DNA of 64,000 bases from Mytilus edulis (GCF_963676685.1 NC_092350.1:3658001-3722000), one strand, 5' to 3'; positions 49,327 to 62,789 are shown, counted from the stretch's first letter. Notes: generated by a model not told the origin, from the sequence alone. Made by a program: numbers and translations.

Positions 49327-49486
49327 AAATACAAAACTTAATCCTGGTATCTATGATGAGTTAATTTACATATTTGTTTGTGTTTTAGTGAGTAAGATTT
49401 TTTCACAATGTTGACTGCTGTATTTTTTAAACTTTTTTTTTTATCTATAATGTCTGTTTGTTTTGTTCACGCATTGTTGTCAATAT

Positions 49487-50879
49487 TGTAACAACTGGAC
49501 AATTATAACATTTAATAATTTTTACAAACTGGAATTTACTATGCTAACAGAAGAAATAAGTCAACTACAGATGGATGAAAACTTTATTGGATGATGGCCT
49601 GCAACAGAAATATTATTGACTTATGAACATTTATTTGAATTGGACATACTGTTATATTTGCAACTTTTTAACTTTATGCATTTTGTTTGGCAAGTGCCCC
49701 TTCCACTTGTTTACCAAACTCGTTTTACTGTATAACATATTTTTCATAGATTGTAAGGTGTCTGGCACAAATATGCATATACCTGAGATTATATTTCAAC
49801 CCATTATAAGTCCTGAAAGTGTCTCAGTAAGGAAATATTTAAGTTTTACTATCGGTCCAAAGCATTTTTGTTGTTTCTCCGCGAAGAGCCATTTTACAGG
49901 TCATGTGACCGCAGTAGGAAATATTTTTGTCGTTGTCATTATATATCTTAAATCTCTTAAGGATTCTATAAGAGTAAGAAAAAAGTCATTACATTAATAG
50001 TTTTATTAAGGCTCCATTATTTATATCTGTTAAAGATTAGTTTCTTAGGGATTATATTGTAACCAGTTTACTGCTGGAATTTAGAATCAGTACTCCCGGC
50101 GTCTGCTCTAGTCCTACGCACGGCTAGAAATTGGAAACAAGTAGTAACGAAGTTTTAAGCTTCTTTTGCTAAATTTAAATAAAGGAAAAGTTAGGACTTT
50201 GGCCCATTTGTATAATAATTAAAGAACAGGCATTTTACTGTCAATTTTACATGTGATTTTTAAATGTGCAGGTTTTCCTGTCAAGCCCTTATTTTATCGG
50301 ACATTTTCCTGTCAGCCCAGACAGAGTTCTCATTGGCCCTCAGGGATCCCTGGCTAGATCCCTTATTTTCTATTGGCTTTCAGGGATCTCAAAAGTATAT
50401 AAATAAGGTTCAACTCAGTGAAATGGCGGATAACTTGTTAGCTCAAGCCTAACTAGTAGCTAAGCCTTAACAACCTGAAAGTTTATCTTTACCAGACCTA
50501 GCCCAACAGAAAAGCCAAGCAGGTTAATATGCTTTAATAATATAAGATGAAGTATTTTTAAGGAAATGTAAATATAAAGGCAGTTATCCCCCACCACACT
50601 GAGTGACCTAAATGACCCGAAAACTGATTACTGATTAAGCGTCTGCATGTCTGCATTTGTCTGTGTACTATATACCATGAACATGTAAAAATAAATATAA
50701 TATACGTTCGAACCTATAGTTTATGGACTGAGAAATATGAGTGCATTGCCTGACATCCATTCGTCTTTAGAGGTAGAAGAAGGAAAAACCCCAAGATGCA
50801 GAATATTCCTGACGAGAGCCCCAAAACTTGTCAACAGACCCTTCCACAATTAATCGGCCTGTGGCGGCGGTTTGTTACA
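49487..50879 (+). repeat. 5' LTR (1393 bp)
   Basis: tgtaacaa...ttgttaca inverted ends; ~99% identical by eye to 59534-60928. Confidence 0.97.
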
Positions 50880-50880
50880 C

Positions 50881-50898
50881 TGGTGTCAGAAGTGGGAT
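50881..50898 (+). promoter_or_regulatory. Primer-binding site, tRNA-Leu type
   Basis: TGGTGTCAGAAGTGGGAT, complementary to the tRNA-Leu 3' end ATCCCACTTCTGACACCA, 1 nt after the LTR. Confidence 0.88.
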
Positions 50899-51170
50899 GT
50901 CAACTCTTCCAGACATCCCGTGATCGTACCCATAGCCAATTCGGGATTATTTTAGCTTCGACGAGTGGTGGAATATGCAAATAATAAATTGTAAATAACG
51001 TTTCCAGTTACTGTTTTTATCGTATTTTGCGTTGTTCCGTTACCGTTGTATTTATGAATTAAAATTTAGATGAACGTTTAAACGACAGTATTTTAACCCT
51101 GTATGTAATCAGTTTTATAAAACAAACACAAAATAATGTTTGTTATCTTTTTAATAAAGCAGCAGCAGAA

Positions 51171-52833
51171 ATGTCAGACTTTGAATGTGATGATAATGAG
51201 ACGCCCCAATTATTAAAACCTCGAGATGAATCTCCCGACCGAGAAATCATGTTCAGACGGAACATAGGGCCGAGTGGCAGCGGTACCGCCGGGGACGACG
51301 ACGAAGCGGGTCAAGGTGACGTATAAACTGGACCCCTGTTGTGTTCACTTATCGCTACACTGACAACAGGTATGGCCTAAATCCCGTGGTCAGAATTCTG
51401 ACCACGGGATTTAATAATCAGGGCTATGTTTAATTATTTATTATACTGATAGCAAATCAAAGAAAAATTAGCACATTTATTACCCTACTGAGTTCTTAAG
51501 GGAACAAAAGATACCGGCTCAGTTTGTCAAGAACATGTTAACACGCTCGTTGGTCATTTATCTGTGCTACTGCCATGGGGTTAATTAACAGATACTTGTT
51601 TATTTTGCGGCATCGCAGTATTAACATTTGAGGTCAATTTCCTATCACTTTAATTGGCCAATTTTATTAGCGAATCGTTGAGTTTGTAAGACTCGTCCAA
51701 TTAATGCCAATGTGACAATAGCACCAACCCGTTCCTTCGGTGCAAAACTATAGATAGAACGGCGGACCAGTTTAGGTGACGTACCGATCAGAGACGAATA
51801 CCGAGGCGTAGGCGAGAATTTTTACCGTAAAGAATACCAACTTGGACCAAACCAGAGAGATTTACCAGACAGAAACCAAAATATCCGTGGCAACAATCCA
51901 GATTTTGACAACCAGATACCGACAGGATTTCCAAGAGGAAATACAAGTGGAACTACCATTAAACCAGAGCCCTACAATGGAAAGGACAGTTGGGAAGAAT
52001 ATATTTCTCACTTTGAAAACTGTGCAGACCTTGGAAGATGGAAAGAATCTGAAAAAGTTCTTTTGCTTGCTGCTAGCCTATGGGGACCAGCTAGGACGTT
52101 CTATATAAGCCTTACCAGTACTGAGAAAAAATCCTACTGTTTATTAGTCAGAACCCTTGAGCAGAGATTTGGAAATGCCAGACATCAGAATAGATGGCTT
52201 TCAAGATTTGAAACAAGAACCAGACAACCTCAAGAGCCCATTGCAAATTTTGGAGATGACTTACGCCAAATGGCCCAAAAAGCATACAGTAACATAGACA
52301 CAAGAGCCCAAGAAGTCCTTGCCCTTAACCAATTGTATAAAAATATTTCCCTTGAAATGAAGTGTCGTTGCATAGATAAAGATTGTCGTTCAGTTACTGA
52401 AGCAGTAGACCTAATAGAGAGATATGAGGCTCTCTTGGGGGATCCTAATGATAGAAAAAGGGGGAATATAAGACAAGTTTCAGATACTAAGACCTACCGA
52501 AACACCCAAGATACTGACATACCAGTCCAAACCAAAGAAAATGAATCAATCCTACAGCAACTTATTAACAGAATAGATCGACTAGAACATGGTTCAAATA
52601 GTAGCCAGACCACTCAAAGAGGCCCAAGAACTTGTTTTACCTGTAACTCTCCTGACCACTTTTACAGGAATTGCCCTTTGTACAAGAGACCAGCAGGACC
52701 AAATCAAGCTTCCCCACCAAACTCAAATTGGTCGAAAAACAGTCCTAATTACCAAGGACAAAGTGGAAATAACCAACAGAACCAGGGAAACGGTTACCCG
52801 TCAGCTCACCAGACCGGAGCCAGACGGAGTTAA
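51171..52833 (+). pseudogene. gag: Gag, 5' part disrupted; open from ~51754
   Basis: IKPEPYNGKDSWEEYISHFENCADLGRW, R.RQPQEPIANF and CCHC knuckle CFTCNSPDHFYRNC. The probable original start is MSDFEC at 51171. Confidence 0.85.
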
Positions 52834-52844
52834 AAGGGTCTGAC

Positions 52845-55800
52845 ATGGATATAGAGAGTAATGCTGAATTTAATGACAGAATAATACAAGTAGGAAAACA
52901 TTTAGACCAATGGGACAATGGATTGTATACCAATGGTACAATTTCTGGATACAAGCTAGATTTTCTGATAGATACTGGTTCTACAGTATCTCTTATATCA
53001 AACCAAGTTCATAAAGATATTTTCCGGTCCAGTCCAGATGTAAATCAGGAATACCTATCAAATGGTATCCAAACCAATAGTTTTAATTACCCCAATATTG
53101 AAAGTCCACAGGATGAATACAGTCTTCAGAACGTAAATGGGACCAATTTAACTACATATGGAATGGTAACTCTTGAGTTTTCCTTAAGAAGCGCCATCTT
53201 TTGTCACCAATTTATTGTATGTGATATCACACCTGATGCCATTTTAGGACAAGATTTCCTACTTAAGCATGTGAAAAAGATTGACTACAGATCTCATATA
53301 CTCCAAACATAAAATTTAGATATTAAATGTTGGGTGGGGGGAGAATTTAGAATGACCTGTCGTGTGTTAGCCAAAGATACTGTTGTTGTACCATCAAACT
53401 CTAGTATGACCTTACCTGTTAATGTACCAAACAAGGAGCATGTTACTAGCATAGCTATAATAGAACCCTGCAATCTTTTATACGAAGAAAAAAATATCTC
53501 TGTAGTTAGTGGTATAATAAATTCTGATGACGAATACCCGTTCGTCCAAGTGGTTAATTACAGTGACTCAGATGTTAAGCTTTATCCTAACACCATGCTT
53601 GGTACTTGTGAATCTGTAGCAGCCTTCCCGGAGTTAAGACAAGACAGATGTGCAGGCGTCAACATTATTCAAAGCAGGCAAGTAGAACCTGATGAAAACG
53701 GAGTACCAGAGCACCTCCAAGACCTTTTGGCAAGAAGTTGCACACATTTGACGCCCAAAGAAAAGATGACCCTTGCAGAACTCCTGAATAAATTCCAAGA
53801 TGTATTCTCAAGGTCCCCAGAAGACATCGGAAGAACTAATAAAATCAAACACAGCATTGATACTGGAGATGCTCGTCCAGTTAGAGTACCACCCAGGAGA
53901 CTACCAATTGGTAAGAGAGAAATAGAAAGGACAGAAGTTTCAAAAATGTTAGAACGTGGCATTATTGAGCCTTCAAACAGCCCCTGGAGTGCACCTTTAG
54001 TCTTAATAACCAAACCAGATCTAACTACCAGAGTATGTGTGGACTTCAGATCGTTAAACCAGCTGTCCAGAGTCGATTCGTACCCCGTTGGGCGAGTAGA
54101 TGACTGTTTAGAGGCTTTATCTAACTCTAAATTGTATAATTTAATGGACTTAAATTCAGGGTTTTGGCAAGTGGAGCTTTTGGAATCTGACAGAGAGAAA
54201 ACAGCTTTTTCCACCAGTCAGGGCCTGTACCAATTCACTGTAATGCCATTTGGATTGTGTAACAGCCCAAGTACCTTTCAGCGTTTAATGGAAGATGTCC
54301 TCAGGGATCTACAATGGAGGGAATGTTTAGTTTATATGGATGACATCATAGTACCTGGATCAACATTTGAAGAATGTGCCAAGCGACTGGAACATATTTT
54401 TGAACGCCTTTTAGAAGCTAATCTAAAACTCAGGCCTCAAAATGTAGTTTTTTCCAAAAGAAAGCAAAATTCCTAGGTCACATTGTTTCAGAAGAAGGTA
54501 TAAGCACTGATCCAGGAAAAGTAGAATCTGTTAAAAACTGGCCAGTTCCCAAAACTATCAAGCAAGTTCGCAGTTTCCTAGGCCTAGCCTCGTATTACAG
54601 ACGATTTTCGGAGGATTTGCCAAAATAGCCCGCCCATGAAACAAATTATGTGAAAAAGGGGTAAAATTGACCTGGACTGACGAGTGTAATGACTCATTTA
54701 AGACCCCGAAAGTGGCACTTACAACGTCACCCATTCTTGCTTATCCTGTACCGGGCCAAACTTTTATTTTGGATACGGATGCCAGTCAACAAGCTGTTGG
54801 TGCTGTACTTTCACAAGAACAGGAAGGAAAGGAGCATGTGATAGCTTACATGAGTAAAGCTTTATCAAGGCCTGAACAATCTTACTGTGTAACAAGAAAA
54901 GAACTCCTAGCAGTTGTAGCAGCTTTAAAACATTTTCATTCATATCTATACGGTCAAAATGTACTTTTAAGAACAGACAATGCTGCAGTCAGTTGGATGA
55001 AAAATTTAAAGAAACCTACAGGTCAGACTGCAAGATGGCTCCAGGAGCTAGGTACCTATGATCTGAACGTCATTCACCGCCCTGGCCTGAAACATACCAA
55101 TGCAGATGCCCTATCCAGAGTGCCCTGTACGTCCTGTCTAAACCAGCAGACACAGAATGATGTGCAAAATATTGAAGAAGACAGCAAAGAGACAGCAATT
55201 CCCCAATGCACCCCACTTAATCAAATCAGAGCTGTAACCAGATCCAGACAGGTTATTCCAAGTGCAGGATTAACGAAAATTAAAGACCTAGTGATAGATG
55301 GTTGGGGCCAAATCTCACTAAGAAAATCACAATTGGATGAACATGAGATATCTGAAATTCTAATGAGAATAGAAGACAAAAAGCGCCCAGAGTGGAACGA
55401 AATCTCCAATCAATCTGCAGTTATAAAAACCTTATGGAGACAATGGGACCGACTGGAAATACACCAAGGTCTTCTTTACAGGAAATGGATCGAAAATGAG
55501 ACAGAAGAATTTCTGCAACTAATCGTACCAACATCAAAAAGACAGGAAGCTATCAGATATTTTCATGATATCCCAACAGGAGGTCATTTAGGCATAGATA
55601 AAACCTTAGATAGAATGAAGAAAACCTTTTATTGGCCCTCAATGAAAAACACCATTGTCGAATACATAAAACGATGTGACAGTTGTGCAGCCCAAAAGCA
55701 ACTACAGGCAAGAAAGGCCCCTATGGGAAAATTCCTCACTGGTGAACCTATGGAGCGAGTCGACATGGATATACTTGGTCCTTTCCCAATGTCTAAAAAC

Positions 55801-56650
55801 AACAATAGATTTGTACTAGTTCTATCAGATCTGTTCACTAAGTGGACAGAAGCATATCCTCTACCAGACCAAGAAGCAAAAACAGTGGCCCAGGCCCTAA
55901 CCAATGAATTTATAAGCAGATTTGGAACACCTCTCCAACTATACTCAAACCAAGGTCGGAATTTCGAGTCAACACTTTTAAAAGAAGTATGCCACCTGTT
56001 ACAAATAGAAAAAACGAGAGCGACCAGTATGAGGCCACAAGCAAATGGCTCTGTTGAAAGATTTAATCGCACATTAGTATCCATGGTTAAAATGTATTGC
56101 CAAGACAATCAAGACTGTTGGGATGAGTTTATACCCCAGTTACTGATGGCATACCGGTCATCAAAACATGCGAGCACCGGTGTAACACCAAATAAAATGA
56201 TGTTAGGAAGGGAGATAACTCTTCCAATCCAAGACTTTATCCCAGAACCAGAAATAGAATATGAAAACAAGGTTAAACCCCATGAATATGTAGAATTACT
56301 CCAAAGTTCCCTTATCAAAGCCCATGCCCATGCAAGAAAACACCTTAAAGGAAGTCAAGAATATCAGAAAAAATATTATGACCAAAGTGCCAAGAAGAGA
56401 TAATTAATTGCAGGACAACCAGTATGGCTACATGACCCAACCAGGAAACCAGGCGTTTGTTCAAAATTGTTGCCTAAATGGAAAGGAACCTTCATAGTTT
56501 TGAAGAAAATTGATGATCTTACATATATGGTGAAAAAGTCACCACGGCAGCCAGCAAAAATTACCACATAGACCGGCTAATACCATACAAGGGCAGAAAC
56601 CCACCAACCTGGTACAAGGATAAAGTAGAAAAAAACAATGAGAAATAAAA
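52845..56650 (+). pseudogene. pol: Pol polyprotein (protease, dUTPase-like linker, RT, RNase H, integrase), several stops and frameshifts
   Basis: FLIDTGS; SPWSAP, YMDD; LDTDAS, TDN; H..GGH..C..C, DILGP, YSNQG (second catalytic D to N), VERFNR; KLLPKWKGTF. Lesions at ~53310, ~54440, ~54610-54640 and 56401. Confidence 0.95.
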
Positions 56651-57658
56651 GTTGTAGTGATTGGCAGAAGATTTGACACATATGTATATACTGTTTATTG
56701 TTAATTTTGTATTGTGAAGAGAGACAGGAGGAGTTATACTGGTGACGATGCGCACTTTCCAGTAAATGTTTTTGTTATAGATCCTGTGACGTCTAGACTC
56801 ATTGGATACTTGAAGATAATCCTTTATTTTTAGAGTGGAATTATGGGATTGGCCATCCTAGGAATTCCGCTAAATATTTTATGTTAAATTTTTGTACTCC
56901 TGAAGGTAGGAGATAGATGAAGAAGAGAAGTCCTGTACAGTCAGCGAAGAGACTGCTGATGATGTATATAATCAGTTTACCGTGCATATATGTAAAGATA
57001 GCCATATTGTAATCCTTGTACCAGTGTTGAAATGTGACAAAAGAAATAAAGTTATTTCCCTTGTAATTGAATTAGTTTTGTGTGTATAAAAGACCTGTCC
57101 TGTCCAAGCCTCCCTTGTAGCCAGGTACTCAGTGTGGATATATTGCCAGTATCCTTTACTATAGTAATACCTTAGTGTAGGAATATTTAGATGTATAATA
57201 TACACCTGTATCATTTACCATACAGCCAGTTCCCAATGAGAAGTAGCTGATGGGCTATATTGTATTAAACAAAACCAAAACCAGATGCTAAGCCATCATA
57301 TTACCAGGATTCCAGTTGTTCCAGCTATTTAATTTCCATGAGTTATGTTATAATGAATATTCCAGAAAAAAAGTATACAGTTAAGGGAAGATAATTGAAA
57401 AGAAAATATTACTTAACCGCTTTCAAACCAGCCACAGAAATAACTAAGGGAGACTAGTTCCAAAATAACAAACCACGATTGCTTACCTAAAGAAAAATAC
57501 CCAGAACTACATGTAGCCATAAGAGAGACAGAATAGGAAGATATTTATGTATACCGATAACCAAGAAATAGATATCACACTGTTCAATGCTTAAATAAAA
57601 TACCATGTCACTGTTAACACCCTAACTTACCATCCGGTTCAAATTGATATCTTTCAGA

Positions 57659-59378
57659 ATGAGACCACTGAACTTAGATGAGTGCTGGATTTGTCAACAG
57701 CAATTCCCTGACCAGAAGACATTAAAGAGACATCTAGCCAGTAAGGGAACGCATTGAGGCCGACTATCTGTTGTTTGTCTGTGGTGTTTCTCCAATGAGA
57801 AGAGGTTCTCCAGGATCAGTGACCTGAAGTGCCACCTGGACGAGAAACACCCAGATATAGCACCAAAATTAGAAAAAACCTTCATGTCTGAGGCCAATGG
57901 ATACTGGTTTAGCGTTTTTCCTGAGGACTATAGGAAAATTGTCACCAAAGTCACTCCAAAGGGAAGTCCTTCTGCCGTCCAGGCAAGGAGCCATGTCACC
58001 AGTTGGTTGGGGAAGTGCAAGTCCATACGAAGATGTCGAAGATTAAGACAGAGCTGGGTGAATGATTGGGCAAACCATCCCAGAGATACAGATGTGGTTG
58101 GAACACCTAGACAGGGGATCAGGGAACCATCTGTGGAGTCGGCAGTGAGTGAGTGGGAGCAAGACGTGCCCACTATCACCTTGGAAGAGGACGCACCAAT
58201 GGAGGAGTATGACCCCCTGTTGCCATCAGTGCTCACACTCCACAGCATTCAGATGACCACAGATGGACCTCTGATTGCCCTCTTCACCCTAACAGTTAAG
58301 GAGATGATCTGGTACAGGGTCGAGATTGACCGAGATTGACCAAGTGATAAGAATGGTGGAGAAGTTTAAGGCAGCATTAGAGAGGAAAGCCAATATCATC
58401 AGGCCAACTGACATTTCCACAATGTCCCATAACGGATCACCAGTTTACGGGGAGGAATTTTATCACAAACATCAGATGTGTGCTGACACCCTTAACATCT
58501 CTCCTGCCTTAATAACCAGGATAGAAAGACGACCAGACATCTTCTCCTCAGTCTCCAAGACCAAACCCATCGTGGCTCCAACCAAATCTCCACTTGCTCC
58601 AACCAACCAGTCTCCATCTGCAACATCATCTGCACCCAAGTCTTCACCATCTATACCCAAGCCTCCATCATCAGCATCCAAGCCTCCATCATCTGTACCC
58701 AAGCCTCCATCATCTGTACCCAAGTCTCCATCATCTGTACCAAAGCCTCCATCATCTGTACCCAAGTCTCCATCACCTGCATCCAAGCCTCCAACATCTG
58801 CATCCAAATCTCCATCTTCTTTGATAGCCAGCCGTCCAGTGGTCCAACCCCCTTCAAGTTCAACAGATTTGACCCTCGCAGAGGAAACCCCCATCCAGAA
58901 AAAAGCCAGGGAGATCTTAACCCTGGGTTCCATGCCAGCAATACCACCTGCCAGAAGGGACTGGAAAACCAAATCTATTAAGATCCCAACTGGATCCACA
59001 TTCTTGCAGTGGCCACCTAGGGAGTGGGAAACCCTAACACCAGACAGCAAGTTGTTGGCCTGGGAATTCGCCGCTTCCCAGTTGGAGTATCACTCCACTG
59101 GGAAATTTCCCAAACTGGATAGAGTTGATTTGTTGGACAAGTACAATTTCCTGGCCCTTCCTGGCACAAAAGAACAGAAGATCAAAGGCAAGGAAAACCT
59201 AGTTAGGAAATGTAGGTATTACAACTACGAAATCCTTAGGACCACCATCAACAATGACAACCCGGACTTCAAAATAATAGTTAACCAGTTGTATATAACA
59301 AGGGATTTGAGGGACACTTCAACCGACAAAATAATTGATCTGTGCAACCATAGCAAAATACCTTTGCGTTTATTGTGA
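57659..59378 (+). pseudogene. Extra ORF3 of the Gypsy element: two C2H2 zinc fingers, acidic region, Pro/Ser repeat, WPPxxW C-terminal domain
   Basis: ATG 57659: CWICQQQFPDQKTLKRHLASKGTH*GRLSVVCLWCFSNEKRFSRISDLKCHLDEKH, in frame with ORF 57884. The 10-bp duplication cgagattgac at 58321-58340 causes the shift into ORF 58326-59378. Confidence 0.85.
58655..58815 (+). repeat. 21-bp coding tandem repeat (KPPSSVP-type, ~7 copies)
   Basis: ccaagcctccatcatctgtac repeated in frame. Confidence 0.9.
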
Positions 59379-59520: not shown

Positions 59521-59533
59521 AAGGAGGGGATAG
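59521..59533 (+). promoter_or_regulatory. Polypurine tract
   Basis: aaggaggggatag directly before the 3' LTR. Confidence 0.85.
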
Positions 59534-60928
59534 TGTAACAACTGGACAATTATAACATTTAATAATTTTTACAACCTGGAATTTACTATGCTAACAGAAG
59601 AAATAAGTCAACTACAGATGGATGAAAACTTTATTGGATGATGGCCTGCAACAGAAATATTATTGACTTTATGAACATTTATTTGAATTGGACATACTGT
59701 TTTATTTGCAACTTTTTAACTTTATGCATTTTGTTTAGCAAGTGCCCCTTCCACTTGGTTACCAAACTCGTTTTACTGTATAACATATTTTTCATAGATT
59801 GTAAGGTGTCTGGCACAAATATGCATATACCTGAGATTATATTTCAACCCATTATAAGTCCTGAAAGTGTCTAAGTAAGGAAATATTTAAGTTTTACTAT
59901 CGGTCCAAAGCATTTTTGGTTTTTTCTCCGTGAAGAGTCATTTTACAGGTCATGTGACCGCAGTAGGAAATATTTTTGTCGTTGTCATTATATATCTTAA
60001 ATCTCTTAAGGATTCTATAAGAGTAAGAAATAAGTCATTACATTAATAGTTTTATTAAGGCTCCATTATTTATATCTGTTAAAGATTAGTTTCTTAGGGA
60101 TTATATTGTAACCAGTTTACTGCTGGAATTTAGTATCAGTACTCCCGGCGTCTGCTCTAGTCCTACGCACGGCTAGAAATTGGAAACAAGTAGTAACGAA
60201 GTTTTAAGCTTCTTTTGCTAAATTTAAATAAAGGAAAAGTTAGGACTTTGGCCCATTTGTATAATAATTAAAGAACAGGCATTTTACTGTCAATTTTACA
60301 TGTGATTTTTAAATGTGCAGGTTTTCCTGTCAAGCCCTTATTTTATCGGATATTTTCCTGTCAGCCCAGACAGAGTTCTCATTGGCCCTCAGGGATCCCT
60401 GGCTAGATCCCTTATTTTCTATTGGCTTTCAGGGATCTCAAAAGTATATAAATAAGGTTCCACTCAGTGAAATGGCGGATAACTTGTTAGCTCAAGCCTA
60501 ACTAGTAGCTAAGCCTTAACAACCTGAAAGTTTATCTTTACCAGACCTAGCCCAACAGAAAAGCCAAGCAGGTTAATATGCTTTAATAATATAAGATGAA
60601 GTATTTTTAAGGAAATGTAAATATAAAGGCAGTTATCCCCCACCACACTGAGTGACCTAAATGACCCGAAAACTGATTACTGATTAAGCGTCTGCATGTC
60701 TGCATTTGTCTGTGTACTATATACCATGAACATGTAAAAATAAATATAATATACGTTCGAACCTATAGTTTATGGACTGAGAAATATGAGTGCATTGCCT
60801 GGCATCCATTCGTCTTTAGAGGTAGAAGAAGGAAAAACCCCAAGATGCAGAATATTCCTGACGAGAGCCCCAAAACTTGTCAACAGACCCTTCCACAATT
60901 ACTCGGCCTGTGGCGGCGGTTTGTTACA
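59534..60928 (+). repeat. 3' LTR (1395 bp)
   Basis: Direct repeat of 49487-50879. Confidence 0.97.
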
Positions 60929-62789
60929 ATATAATGGAATTTGATGCGACTGTCATACAATTGAGAGGTTAAGCTAGCTATAAAACAATGCTCAATTCAA
61001 CATTTTTTACACTTTTACCGACGGTACAAGGGTTGTATAGCCAGGCAATGTCGTTAATACCTTCCATCTGTTGTATTGTGTACACCAGAAAAAGCCAGTA
61101 CCAAGTCAGGAATATGACAGTTGTTATCCATTTGTTTGGTGTGTTTGAGCTTTTGATTTTGCCATTTGATTAGGGATTTTCCGTAGTTCAATATTTTTGT
61201 GATTTTACATTTTACATTCTGCAAATATTGATAATGGCAGTGGAGTTGCGTAATAAACTGGAAACAATGCAACTTATATGAAGAAATGCTTACAGGTTTA
61301 TTGTGTGAATAATAAGTTTATAAACCTTTAGATTTAATAATGAACCTTTGTACCATGAGTTCATTTGAAAACATATTTGAGCCATGCAGTAGTTATTCGG
61401 GGTCTCTTGGTATCGTTAATTCTAGGATTCCAAAGGCTATTATCATGTTTTGTCTTATGTCAGAATATAATGAGCAAACTGTTAAAAAATGTGTATTGGA
61501 AAGAAGTGACAGTTTAAAATACACTATTCAATCTTAGTCATGCGTGATGAATTTGACCTTTTCGTCATCCAGCAGAAATGTATAAATGGACTAAATCATA
61601 TGATTCTTAACTACAGATAGATATTTACAATTTCTTTCATTTAATGGTAAATAATTTCCTAATTTGATGGCGTCAACCTTATAACAAAAAAAGGAAACAT
61701 ACTATAATTGTTTTCGGACACGTCATTTGAACTATTAGTACTTGCATTGACTTATAGGATCATTAAATGCGATATATATTTCCCGAGTACTAGTAATCCA
61801 TATCAATAACAGTATTTAAAAATGACATCCATTGTATCATATACACTTCCTGCTAGAAATATGGTTGGAATGTTGAGATACAGATAAATGCTAAAAAAAT
61901 AGACATAGTTGTGAAATTATAAAAAAAAGGGAATAATAAAATTAAAATAGAACGAGTGATTAATAGCAATAGAAGAAACAACTGCTAGAAAATAAAATGA
62001 AGAAAAAAATGAAGAAAAAACAAACGTGAAATGAAACTGCTAGTTCACATTGTTCATGCGTTGTTTCCTATATAAAGAAGAGGTGTAGTATGAATGCTAT
62101 ACCTGTACTTATAATTAGTTAATCTTTTTTTGAAAAAATAGGCATACGGTTTCAAATATATAAATTTCGCAATATGAAATTAATCTTGAATTTCCCCCAG
62201 TCGGTAAATCCAAGGTTAACGGTTATTCCATGTACATAACAAAATGAACTATACAGTGTGACCCAGCAACTAAATGAACAAAAAAGTAAAATCACAAAAA
62301 TACTGAACTCAGAGGAAAATCCAATCGAAAAGTCCATAACCACATGGCAAAATCAAATGACAAAACACATAAAAAACGAATGGACAAGAACTGTCATATT
62401 CCTGACTAAAAGAAGTTGAAAGTGAAATATTTCCTTTTTATTAACCGATATGTGTATCACATGTCGCTCGTATGAATAAAAAGAATTAAAGTTCTGATAT
62501 CTTACCTTTGTGCTTGAGCTTTTGATTTTTCCATTTTACAAAAAACAATTTCCGTTTCGAATTTCCCTTGCAGTTTTTGTTATTTCATCTTTTGACACAA
62601 AACTGTTTGCCTATATCGGCAAAAATTGCCAAAGAATCATAAAACGTATTTTTTATTCCCCCTAATAAAAACCTCTTTAAGACGCTAGTAATGGCAACAG
62701 TACTATAATATAAGACAAAACCTCATCATACATAATAACAGATTGCAACACGTTTCCGAGTGTAGATATGTTAACTCATCGAAACCACA

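What the first reader, a model, noticed from the sequence alone, without database searches (positions are those of the whole stretch)
57620..59378. Gypsy element with a spliced-looking zinc-finger ORF in the env position
Seen: undoing one TGA (57755) and one 10-bp duplication (58321-58340) gives a single ~570-aa protein between integrase and PPT. It has two C2H2 fingers, an acidic stretch, a (KPPSSVP)n linker and a C-terminal block (MPAIPPARRDW..WPPREWETL..KYNFLALPGT) that I cannot assign. No signal peptide or TM segment is evident, so it is not Env. The ATG is preceded by branch-point CTAAC (~57622) and acceptor ctttcAG (57657). Known: errantivirus env is made from a spliced subgenomic RNA at this position. 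Inference: an element-encoded nucleic-acid-binding regulator (LTR transactivator or anti-silencing factor) made from a spliced RNA. A candidate donor AG/GTATGG lies at 51370.
Basis: partly seen in the sequence, partly recalled or inferred. Interest (0 to 1): 0.82.

Follow-up and report, generated by a model that had tools for sequence, protein, structure and literature searches.

The report
Bivalve retrotransposon zinc-finger accessory gene
A clade of Gypsy jumping genes in mussels carries, where retroviruses keep their envelope gene, a conserved third gene for a two-zinc-finger protein with a domain of no known fold; it is likely made from a spliced RNA and likely regulates the element's own expression, and the copy in this window is a decayed one.

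Summary
The window has a decayed Gypsy copy (LTRs 49487-50879 and 59534-60928, 1.0% apart; tRNA-Leu primer site; ATAT target duplication), probably from a Mytilus mussel. Its third ORF is broken at 57755 and near 58321. A natural sibling carries it unbroken (566 aa). All six families of one pol clade keep it at 33-51% domain identity, under purifying selection (shared-variant dN/dS 0.05-0.14). There are 190 clusters at E≤1e-30, with named hits in mussels, Mercenaria and Sinanodonta. It is not Env. It has a C2H2 pair with a helical extension, a middle domain, a variable linker and a confidently modelled C-terminal domain (pLDDT 95) without a structural match. An acceptor-like site precedes 24 of 25 ORF3 starts (controls 20 of 264), but no spliced read was seen. 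Sister clades fill the same slot with zinc fingers plus BTB, TatD or coiled coils. Function is untested; an LTR-binding self-regulator is the best guess, a CERV/Rev-like exporter the main rival. This scan earlier noted zinc-finger and TatD third genes on other DNA, but not this protein.

The parts
49483..49486 (+). Target-site duplication ATAT (again at 60929-60932)
   Evidence: ATAT at 5 of 7 full elements read, CTAT at 1, unclear at 1
49487..50879 (+). 5' LTR (TG...CA), TATA-like box near 50396, AATAAA near 50690
   Evidence: 14 mismatches in 1393 to the 3' LTR
50881..50898 (+). Primer-binding site complementary to the 3' end of tRNA-Leu(CAG)
   Evidence: the pattern hit a 57-copy array, in which ARAGORN called 4 tRNA-Leu(cag) genes on one of two loci scanned; same PBS in families A-D
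51171..52833 (+). gag (PNMA-like capsid, CCHC knuckle), interrupted by the nested insertion
51324..51774 (.).
   Evidence: (40 of 431 candidates scored; all 40 match, 38 over almost the full length, the other copies at 88-93%); loose read ends at both edges
52773..56648 (+). pol (PR-RT-RH-IN), decayed: in-frame stops at 53310, 54637, 56401 and small indels near 52823, 54432, 54608, 56560
56649..57658 (+). About 1-kb non-coding spacer ending in a pyrimidine tract and CAG acceptor (AG ends 57657; CTAAC at 57622)
   Evidence: spacers of six families (390-1007 nt) share no alignable sequence apart from one 16-nt match between D and E
57659..58078 (+). ORF3 N-terminal module: two C2H2-type fingers plus a conserved helical extension (residues 1-137); stop codon at 57755 in this copy
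58200..58530 (+). ORF3 middle globular domain (3-strand sheet plus helices, about residues 185-290); frame change at the duplication 58321-58340
58582..58841 (+). Ser/Pro-rich linker with a 21-nt tandem repeat; family-specific, replaced by other low-complexity linkers in other families
58875..59378 (+). ORF3 C-terminal domain, about 165 aa, mostly helical, no family or fold match
59521..59533 (+). Polypurine tract
   Evidence: sequence
59534..60928 (+). 3' LTR

Best explanation
ORF3 is a conserved, non-envelope accessory gene of a bivalve Gypsy clade, likely translated from a spliced subgenomic RNA, whose zinc-finger pair is predicted to bind the element's own LTR or leader DNA so that its C-terminal domain would recruit host machinery and raise or protect the element's transcription. 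Shown: gene position between integrase and polypurine tract, inheritance with pol, purifying selection, two C2H2-type fingers, and absence of membrane segments. Inferred by comparison: splicing to the acceptor just before the ATG. Inferred only: nuclear location, DNA target, and the activating or anti-silencing effect. The window's copy is a decayed member.
For: Gag/pol lie upstream of ORF3 in 10 of 10 sibling stretches first examined, with LTR pairs 98.9-100% identical in 9 of 10. All ORF3-of-this-type elements form one pol clade (11 of 47 rows, SH-aLRT 100, quick tree), with pol 54-58% and ORF3 domains 33-51% identical between six families. Variants shared by two or more copies give dN/dS 0.14, 0.05 and 0.09 in three families (P 1e-10, 3e-6, 8e-21); pol pairs give 0.20-0.55. 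A YAG with a pyrimidine tract lies within 12 nt of 24 of 25 ORF3 ATGs versus 20 of 264 spacer ATGs. The fingers have the usual 7-residue His-to-Cys linker, and finger 2 keeps Arg at -1 (82%) and Asp at +3 (80%) among 98 aligned sequences; these are base-reading positions in the C2H2 code (recalled). The best structural matches of residues 4-68 are DNA-bound zinc-finger arrays (Z up to 4.2, rmsd 4.2, 59 aligned; weak). Basic NLS-like motifs occur in 5 of 6 proteins. Sister clades join a similar finger pair to BTB, TatD or coiled coils, a 'targeting module plus effector' design.
Against: No function was tested. No spliced junction was seen: two raw RNA runs had no reads on ORF3, and contigs of two runs guessed to be RNA cross the acceptor unspliced. 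No donor is conserved in place among four families. The LTRs of five families share no exact 7- to 10-mers above shuffles, though a site of 3-6 bases would be missed. Two fingers give little specificity. Finger 1 has a long His-His spacing and scores best with zf-met (21.4 bits versus cut-off 21.2), a matrin/U1-like type more often tied to RNA (recalled). The best-studied Gypsy precedent, CERV, acts on RNA export and is not needed for transcription (PMC10309623, section 9). The Atlas leads for the finger region were unnamed or generic C2H2 clusters.
Confidence: 0.4

Rival explanations
1. Rev/CERV-like export factor: the spliced ORF3 product binds the unspliced genomic RNA in the nucleus and lets it out for Gag-Pol synthesis and packaging.
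For: An element with a strong internal acceptor must export unspliced RNA. CERV of the LTR retrotransposon Cer1 is a 517-aa, three-domain nuclear protein from a spliced mRNA with a possible zinc finger that does this (PMC10309623 sections 9, 15). Finger 1 resembles zf-met/jaz types. The finger pair is the part most widely shared among sister ORF3s.
Against: No positionally shared stable RNA structure in the spacers (4 of 64 windows at z ≤ -2, scattered) and no Rfam match. No G-protein-like fold as in CERV among the fold-search rows. Finger 2 keeps DNA-reading-type residues.
Confidence: 0.27
2. Counter-defence adaptor: ORF3 does not act on the element's nucleic acid but binds and disables a host silencing or restriction protein.
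For: Sister clades carry BTB_2 (E 2e-19, 2e-16) or TatD nuclease domains (E 1e-30 to 1e-39) in the same slot, and the slot's content turns over between clades. The middle domain evolves fastest (pairwise dN/dS up to 0.7-0.8).
Against: The N and C domains are under strong purifying selection with no ratio above 1. Conserved fingers point to nucleic-acid binding.
Confidence: 0.15
3. Particle or integration cofactor: ORF3 rides with the integration complex and guides it to chromatin, or aids envelope-free transfer between cells.
For: The elements prefer ATAT targets (5 of 7). An earlier scan note describes a two-finger module fused to integrase in another genome (unchecked). Env-free transmission by a small accessory protein is known (Voichek et al., bioRxiv 2025.03.14.642691, abstract).
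Against: ORF3 is separated from pol by stops and a 0.4-1 kb spacer in all six families. There is no transmembrane segment, unlike sORF2. A 4-bp target preference can be intrinsic to integrase (recalled).
Confidence: 0.1
4. A captured host gene fragment carried passively, or a decayed env.
For: The window copy is broken, and many copies have stops. Five of 15 further ORF3 hits have no gag/pol within 9 kb.
Against: dN/dS of 0.05-0.14; co-descent with pol; unbroken frames in five genome loci of four families and in three metagenome contigs. The five lone hits are partial or carry stops and resemble element copies. No Env hallmark.
Confidence: 0.03

Closest known systems
CERV of Cer1, C. elegans LTR retrotransposon (PMC10309623; abstract and sections 6, 9, 15 read)
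   Same: Accessory protein of about 500-600 aa with three predicted folded domains joined by flexible linkers, a zinc-binding element, and a spliced mRNA (shown for CERV, inferred here).
   Different: CERV shares exons with gag, has a C4-type loop and a G-protein-like domain. This ORF3 is one exon after integrase with its own ATG, two C2H2-type fingers and an unmatched C-terminal fold. No homology seen; CERV was not aligned directly.
Errantivirus env-F (gypsy, ZAM, Idefix; PMC12992720, passages read; PMC13524379, passages read)
   Same: Third ORF between pol and the 3' LTR, expressed through a splice acceptor; tRNA-Leu primer sites also occur in errantiviruses.
   Different: No signal peptide-like or transmembrane stretch and no furin site; zinc fingers instead; no envelope family match.
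Non-env ORF3s of bdelloid Juno/Vesta elements (Rodriguez et al. 2017, PMC5408684; parts 1-2 of 5 read)
   Same: Same principle: family-specific, non-envelope cargo in the ORF3 slot, said to be expressed from spliced messages.
   Different: Their cargo is GDSL esterase, DEDDy exonuclease, coiled-coil or TM proteins; 'zinc finger' had 0 occurrences in that paper's search count. Here the cargo is a C2H2 pair with a new domain, and sister clades carry BTB or TatD.
Regulatory genes of complex retroviruses (Tat, Rev, Tax, foamy-virus Tas; recalled, search listing only)
   Same: Trans-acting regulator from a spliced RNA, encoded near the 3' end.
   Different: No sequence or fold likeness found; those proteins are not tandem C2H2 proteins (recalled).
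sORF2 of MDG1-group elements (bioRxiv 10.1101/2025.03.14.642691; abstract and outline read)
   Same: Accessory ORF after pol in env-less Gypsy elements.
   Different: sORF2 is a short transmembrane fusogen-like protein; this ORF3 is 430-820 aa and has no membrane segment.

Membership tests
Ty3/Gypsy (Metaviridae) LTR retrotransposon | LTRs with TG...CA, PBS, PPT, short target duplication | tested here: met
Ty3/Gypsy (Metaviridae) LTR retrotransposon | gag, then pol in the order PR-RT-RH-IN | tested here: met
   Pfam on window frames; layout in siblings
Named Gypsy clade (MolGy1-16, CsRN1, C-clade, errantivirus and others) | RT/RH phylogeny with reference elements | not tested
   No reference sequences were on hand; the tree has no named outgroup. 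PMC6238403 defines mollusc clades, with 0 occurrences of 'ORF' or 'zinc' in its main text (supplements not read).
Errantivirus env (Env-F or gB type) | Signal peptide and C-terminal transmembrane anchor | tested here: not met
   Highest 19-residue hydropathy 0.66-1.29 in 6 of 6 proteins, none at the N-terminus (simple hydropathy scan, not SignalP/TMHMM)
Errantivirus env (Env-F or gB type) | Furin site R-x-K/R-R | tested here: not met
   0 sites in 6 of 6 proteins
Errantivirus env (Env-F or gB type) | Expression from a spliced subgenomic RNA | tested here: inconclusive
   Acceptor conserved; no junction in 4 runs, of which the two true RNA runs did not cover the gene
C2H2 zinc-finger protein | C-x2-C ... 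H-x3-6-H with beta-beta-alpha fold | tested here: met
   His 99-100% and finger-2 Cys 91-93% conserved; model pLDDT 95-98 over residues 11-70; zf-met just above cut-off on the isolated finger, below cut-offs on the whole protein
C2H2 zinc-finger protein | Sequence-specific DNA binding | not testable with these tools
   Only indirect: conserved -1/+3 residues; no shared LTR k-mers
CERV-like export factor | Homology or shared H/M/G domains | tested here: inconclusive
   No G-protein fold among listed matches; CERV itself was not compared
CERV-like export factor | Required for export of unspliced RNA | not testable with these tools
   Needs knock-down and RNA localisation
Known protein family for the C-terminal domain | Sequence or fold match | tested here: inconclusive
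   No Pfam family, no PDB sequence match, Foldseek best E 1.2 and 1.3, VIA best Z 2.9 (rmsd 4.0, 66 aligned); AlphaFold DB not searched

The most novel reading that the evidence does not exclude
A large, old lineage of marine-invertebrate Gypsy elements are 'complex' retrotransposons. A spliced third-gene slot holds a two-finger nucleic-acid reader joined to interchangeable effectors (a new fold here; BTB, TatD nuclease or coiled coil in sister clades). This gives each clade its own self-regulator or counter-silencing device, the mirror image of host zinc-finger repressors of transposons.
Probability: 0.35. Interest if true: 0.82.

Novelty: new variant of a known kind. Interest (0 to 1): 0.62.

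Why it matters
Trans-acting regulators are a hallmark of complex retroviruses and are barely known in animal LTR retrotransposons, CERV being the worked example found here. This family offers hundreds of natural sequences, young insertions and a well-modelled domain with no structural match, so the question of whether Gypsy elements encode their own transcription or export regulators becomes directly testable. It also shows that some RefSeq 'uncharacterized' bivalve genes (LOC134716828, LOC143073103, probably LOC128556870) match this retrotransposon cargo. The C-terminal domain is a candidate new fold.

Tried and rejected
RNA evidence: no listed holder was on record as RNA. The 'GT..AG' joint 51313-51774 in X2 is the empty site of the nested element, not an intron. 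Donor search with a recalled generic weight matrix gave no site conserved in position among four families; the top site in family A is at 51315, inside gag. Internal promoter in the spacer: a TATA-like word in 3 of 6 families at unrelated positions; not supported. Shared LTR k-mers: none above shuffles. Homodimer prediction of the C-terminal domain: no verdict, score 0.00, alignment not used, fold uncertain; no evidence either way. Fold searches: nothing at E ≤ 0.001 for either model; residues 70-137 were barely tested and the middle domain gave only generic sheet matches (Z ≤ 3.9). Atlas search of the C-domain: best 0.79, lead level only. C-domain versus the sister clade's helical domain: probability 0.2%, unrelated. 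GTDB genomes: 0 of 115 pattern hits confirmed. The tool for gene context of database proteins was closed, so exon structures of RefSeq models could not be seen. The careful tree did not finish; the quick tree is reported. Paper searches with no report of this ORF: 0 papers; 0 papers; Repbase entries and most subscription papers are outside the library, and supplements of PMC6238403 and PMC13524379 were not read, so an earlier database annotation cannot be excluded.

Full report
The element. The window holds a complete but decayed Gypsy copy. Its LTRs lie at 49487-50879 and 59534-60928 and differ at 14 of 1393 sites, with an ATAT target duplication. The primer site at 50881 matches tRNA-Leu(CAG) genes of the same genome. 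[quoted passage not shown] Against a sibling, pol has three in-frame stops and several small indels. Close protein homologues (92-100%) are named Mytilus edulis, M. trossulus and M. galloprovincialis, so the host is probably a Mytilus mussel.

The third ORF is real. It starts at 57659 and ends at 59378. This copy has a stop at 57755, a 9-nt extra near 58028 and a frame change at a 10-nt duplication at 58321. A natural sibling carries an unbroken 566-aa frame. The C-terminal block gave 41 matches among 51 candidates in the genome, and the N-terminal part 36 among 78. In 10 of 10 sibling stretches examined first, gag/pol lie upstream; 9 of 10 have LTR pairs 98.9-100% identical. Of 15 further hits, 8 have gag/pol upstream in order, 2 nearby but rearranged, and 5 none within 9 kb; those 5 are partial or broken. 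Five families in this genome, and a sixth on a public contig (L052), share the layout, with pol 54-58% and the ORF3 end domains 33-51% identical.

It is under selection. Codon counts on natural copies, over the three folded domains, give dN/dS 0.14, 0.05 and 0.09 for variants shared by two or more copies in families A, B and D (P ≤ 3e-6). Private variants give 0.30-0.38, and pol pairs 0.20-0.55. Linkers were left out, copies are related, and the middle domain is looser (up to 0.7-0.8 in some pairs).

It is widespread. A profile of 11 sequences found 1316 representatives at E ≤ 0.001, 469 at 1e-10 and 190 at 1e-30; the weaker ones may include generic zinc-finger or low-complexity hits. Of 160 proteins held, 58 have both end domains. 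Of 30 clusters looked up, 4 name an organism: Mytilus edulis, Mercenaria mercenaria, Sinanodonta woodiana and a Ca. Thiodiazotropha bin, the last probably host DNA (inference). The range beyond bivalves is unknown, and element context outside Mytilus was seen only for L052.

Anatomy. AlphaFold2 with 98 sequences models residues 1-137 as two C2H2-type fingers plus a helical extension, and 185-290 as a small sheet-and-helix domain (mean pLDDT 86). With 104 sequences the C-terminal 167 residues give pLDDT 95 and pTM 0.88. This domain has no Pfam, PDB-sequence or Foldseek match; the best VIA Z is 2.9, against a typical best of 7-8 for unmatched models. That suggests a new fold but does not show it. 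There is no membrane segment or furin site in 6 of 6 proteins, so it is not Env. The KPPSSVP repeat is peculiar to family A; other families have acidic, Ser/Thr-rich or Glu/Lys/Gln-rich linkers.

Splicing. In all six families a pyrimidine tract and CAG lie 1-4 nt before the ATG, although the spacers cannot be aligned. Across 25 ORF3 starts of this and sister clades, 24 have such a site, versus 20 of 264 spacer ATGs and 298 of 2905 ATGs overall. The rule was set after viewing, starts were picked by eye, and some rows are kin. Direct proof is missing: no joint ends at the acceptor, two raw RNA runs did not cover the gene, and contigs from two runs only guessed to be RNA cross it unspliced. It lies within a 451-nt nested element with terminal inverted repeats and 9-bp direct repeats, absent from 4 of 4 readable siblings and repeated across the genome. 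No replacement donor is conserved.

The slot is lineage-wide. I took 40 loci from the 150 scored integrase hits (of 1919 candidates), chosen to avoid near-duplicates. Four belong to this clade (three with ORF3, one truncated) and one was dropped for a strand error. Of the other 35, 32 have a different long frame after pol. Most begin with a finger pair; effector parts include BTB_2 (2 of 2 scanned), TatD (3 of 3 scanned) and coiled-coil-like or unknown tails. On a quick pol tree of 47 rows, ORF3 types largely follow clades, and this type is one clade with SH-aLRT 100 (midpoint root, careful search unfinished). One sister ORF3 tested shares only the finger pair (probability 78%).

Mechanism. 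The most likely reading (0.40) is a nuclear regulator that binds the element's own LTR or leader DNA and recruits host machinery through the C-terminal domain. Finger spacing is canonical, and finger 2 keeps Arg(-1) and Asp(+3) in 82% and 80% of sequences. Against it, the LTRs share no long words, and finger 1 looks matrin-like. The main rival (0.27) is a CERV/Rev-like exporter of unspliced RNA (PMC10309623, sections read). A counter-defence adaptor (0.15) and a particle or integration cofactor (0.10) follow. None was tested.

Novelty. Non-env third genes are known (PMC5408684, parts 1-2 read; CERV; sORF2, abstract). Nine of my ten paper searches looked for such an ORF and found no report of this family; Repbase and unread supplements may hold annotations. 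Look-ups by sequence found no earlier scan note on this protein. Notes on other genomes describe a two-finger cassette fused to integrase and a TatD third gene in sea urchins (unchecked). Verdict: a real, conserved, unassigned accessory protein family with a likely new fold, a new variant of a known kind; interest 0.62.

Noticed in passing
L069, L070, L085, L089, L092 (G000): Sister Gypsy clade whose third ORF ends in a TatD DNase domain (Pfam E 1e-30 to 1e-39 in the 3 scanned); relatives L076, L077, L081 and L086 keep the upstream zinc-like and helical part without TatD in the frame read.
   Followed up: partly
L083, L090 (G000): Third ORF with two zinc fingers and a C-terminal BTB_2 (KCTD-type) domain.
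   Followed up: partly
L058-L064, L067, L068, L091, L093; L066, L079, L080; L072, L073, L078, L082, L084; L075: Further third-ORF types: finger pair plus coiled-coil-like tail, plus short C-terminal tail, or plus an unknown C-terminal block; each follows a pol clade except L093.
   Followed up: partly
window 51324-51774: Non-autonomous DNA element with 9-bp target duplications (Mutator-like by that trait, recalled), 431 candidates genome-wide; most RNA reads laid fell on it.
   Followed up: yes
window 50922-50929 and matching place in families B, C, D: A CG-containing motif 41-46 nt after the start of the primer site in 10 of 10 leaders; it resembles the complement of the tRNA T-loop (recalled), so it may be a second primer-pairing site rather than an ORF3 site.
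   Followed up: partly
window 50300-51123, runs X2 and X3: One LTR-plus-leader contig has depth 322 and 185 against about 1-13 over pol and ORF3, ending at 51102 and 51123. It may be an abundant deleted derivative or read-through transcript; unexplained.
   Followed up: partly
L053: Metagenome contig in the order ORF3 - LTR-sized gap - gag: a one-LTR circle, tandem copy or collapsed assembly of family D.
   Followed up: no
L052:59-77: The sixth family has a different primer-site-like sequence from families A-D.
   Followed up: no
L045-L046 (G000:C4:77528000-77547999): A family D element nested inside a family A element, in the spacer region between pol and ORF3.
   Followed up: no
G000:C7:21401335-21449306: Tandem array of 57 matches, mostly at about 409-bp spacing, with tRNA-Leu(CAG) genes called in one of two loci scanned.
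   Followed up: partly
P0058, P0061 (proteins only): Some homologues seem to have no Met between the acceptor-like region and the first Cys, which would require a start codon from an upstream exon; DNA not seen.
   Followed up: no
window 61104-62407: Long imperfect inverted repeats flanking about 1.1-1.2 kb, probably another non-autonomous DNA element.
   Followed up: no
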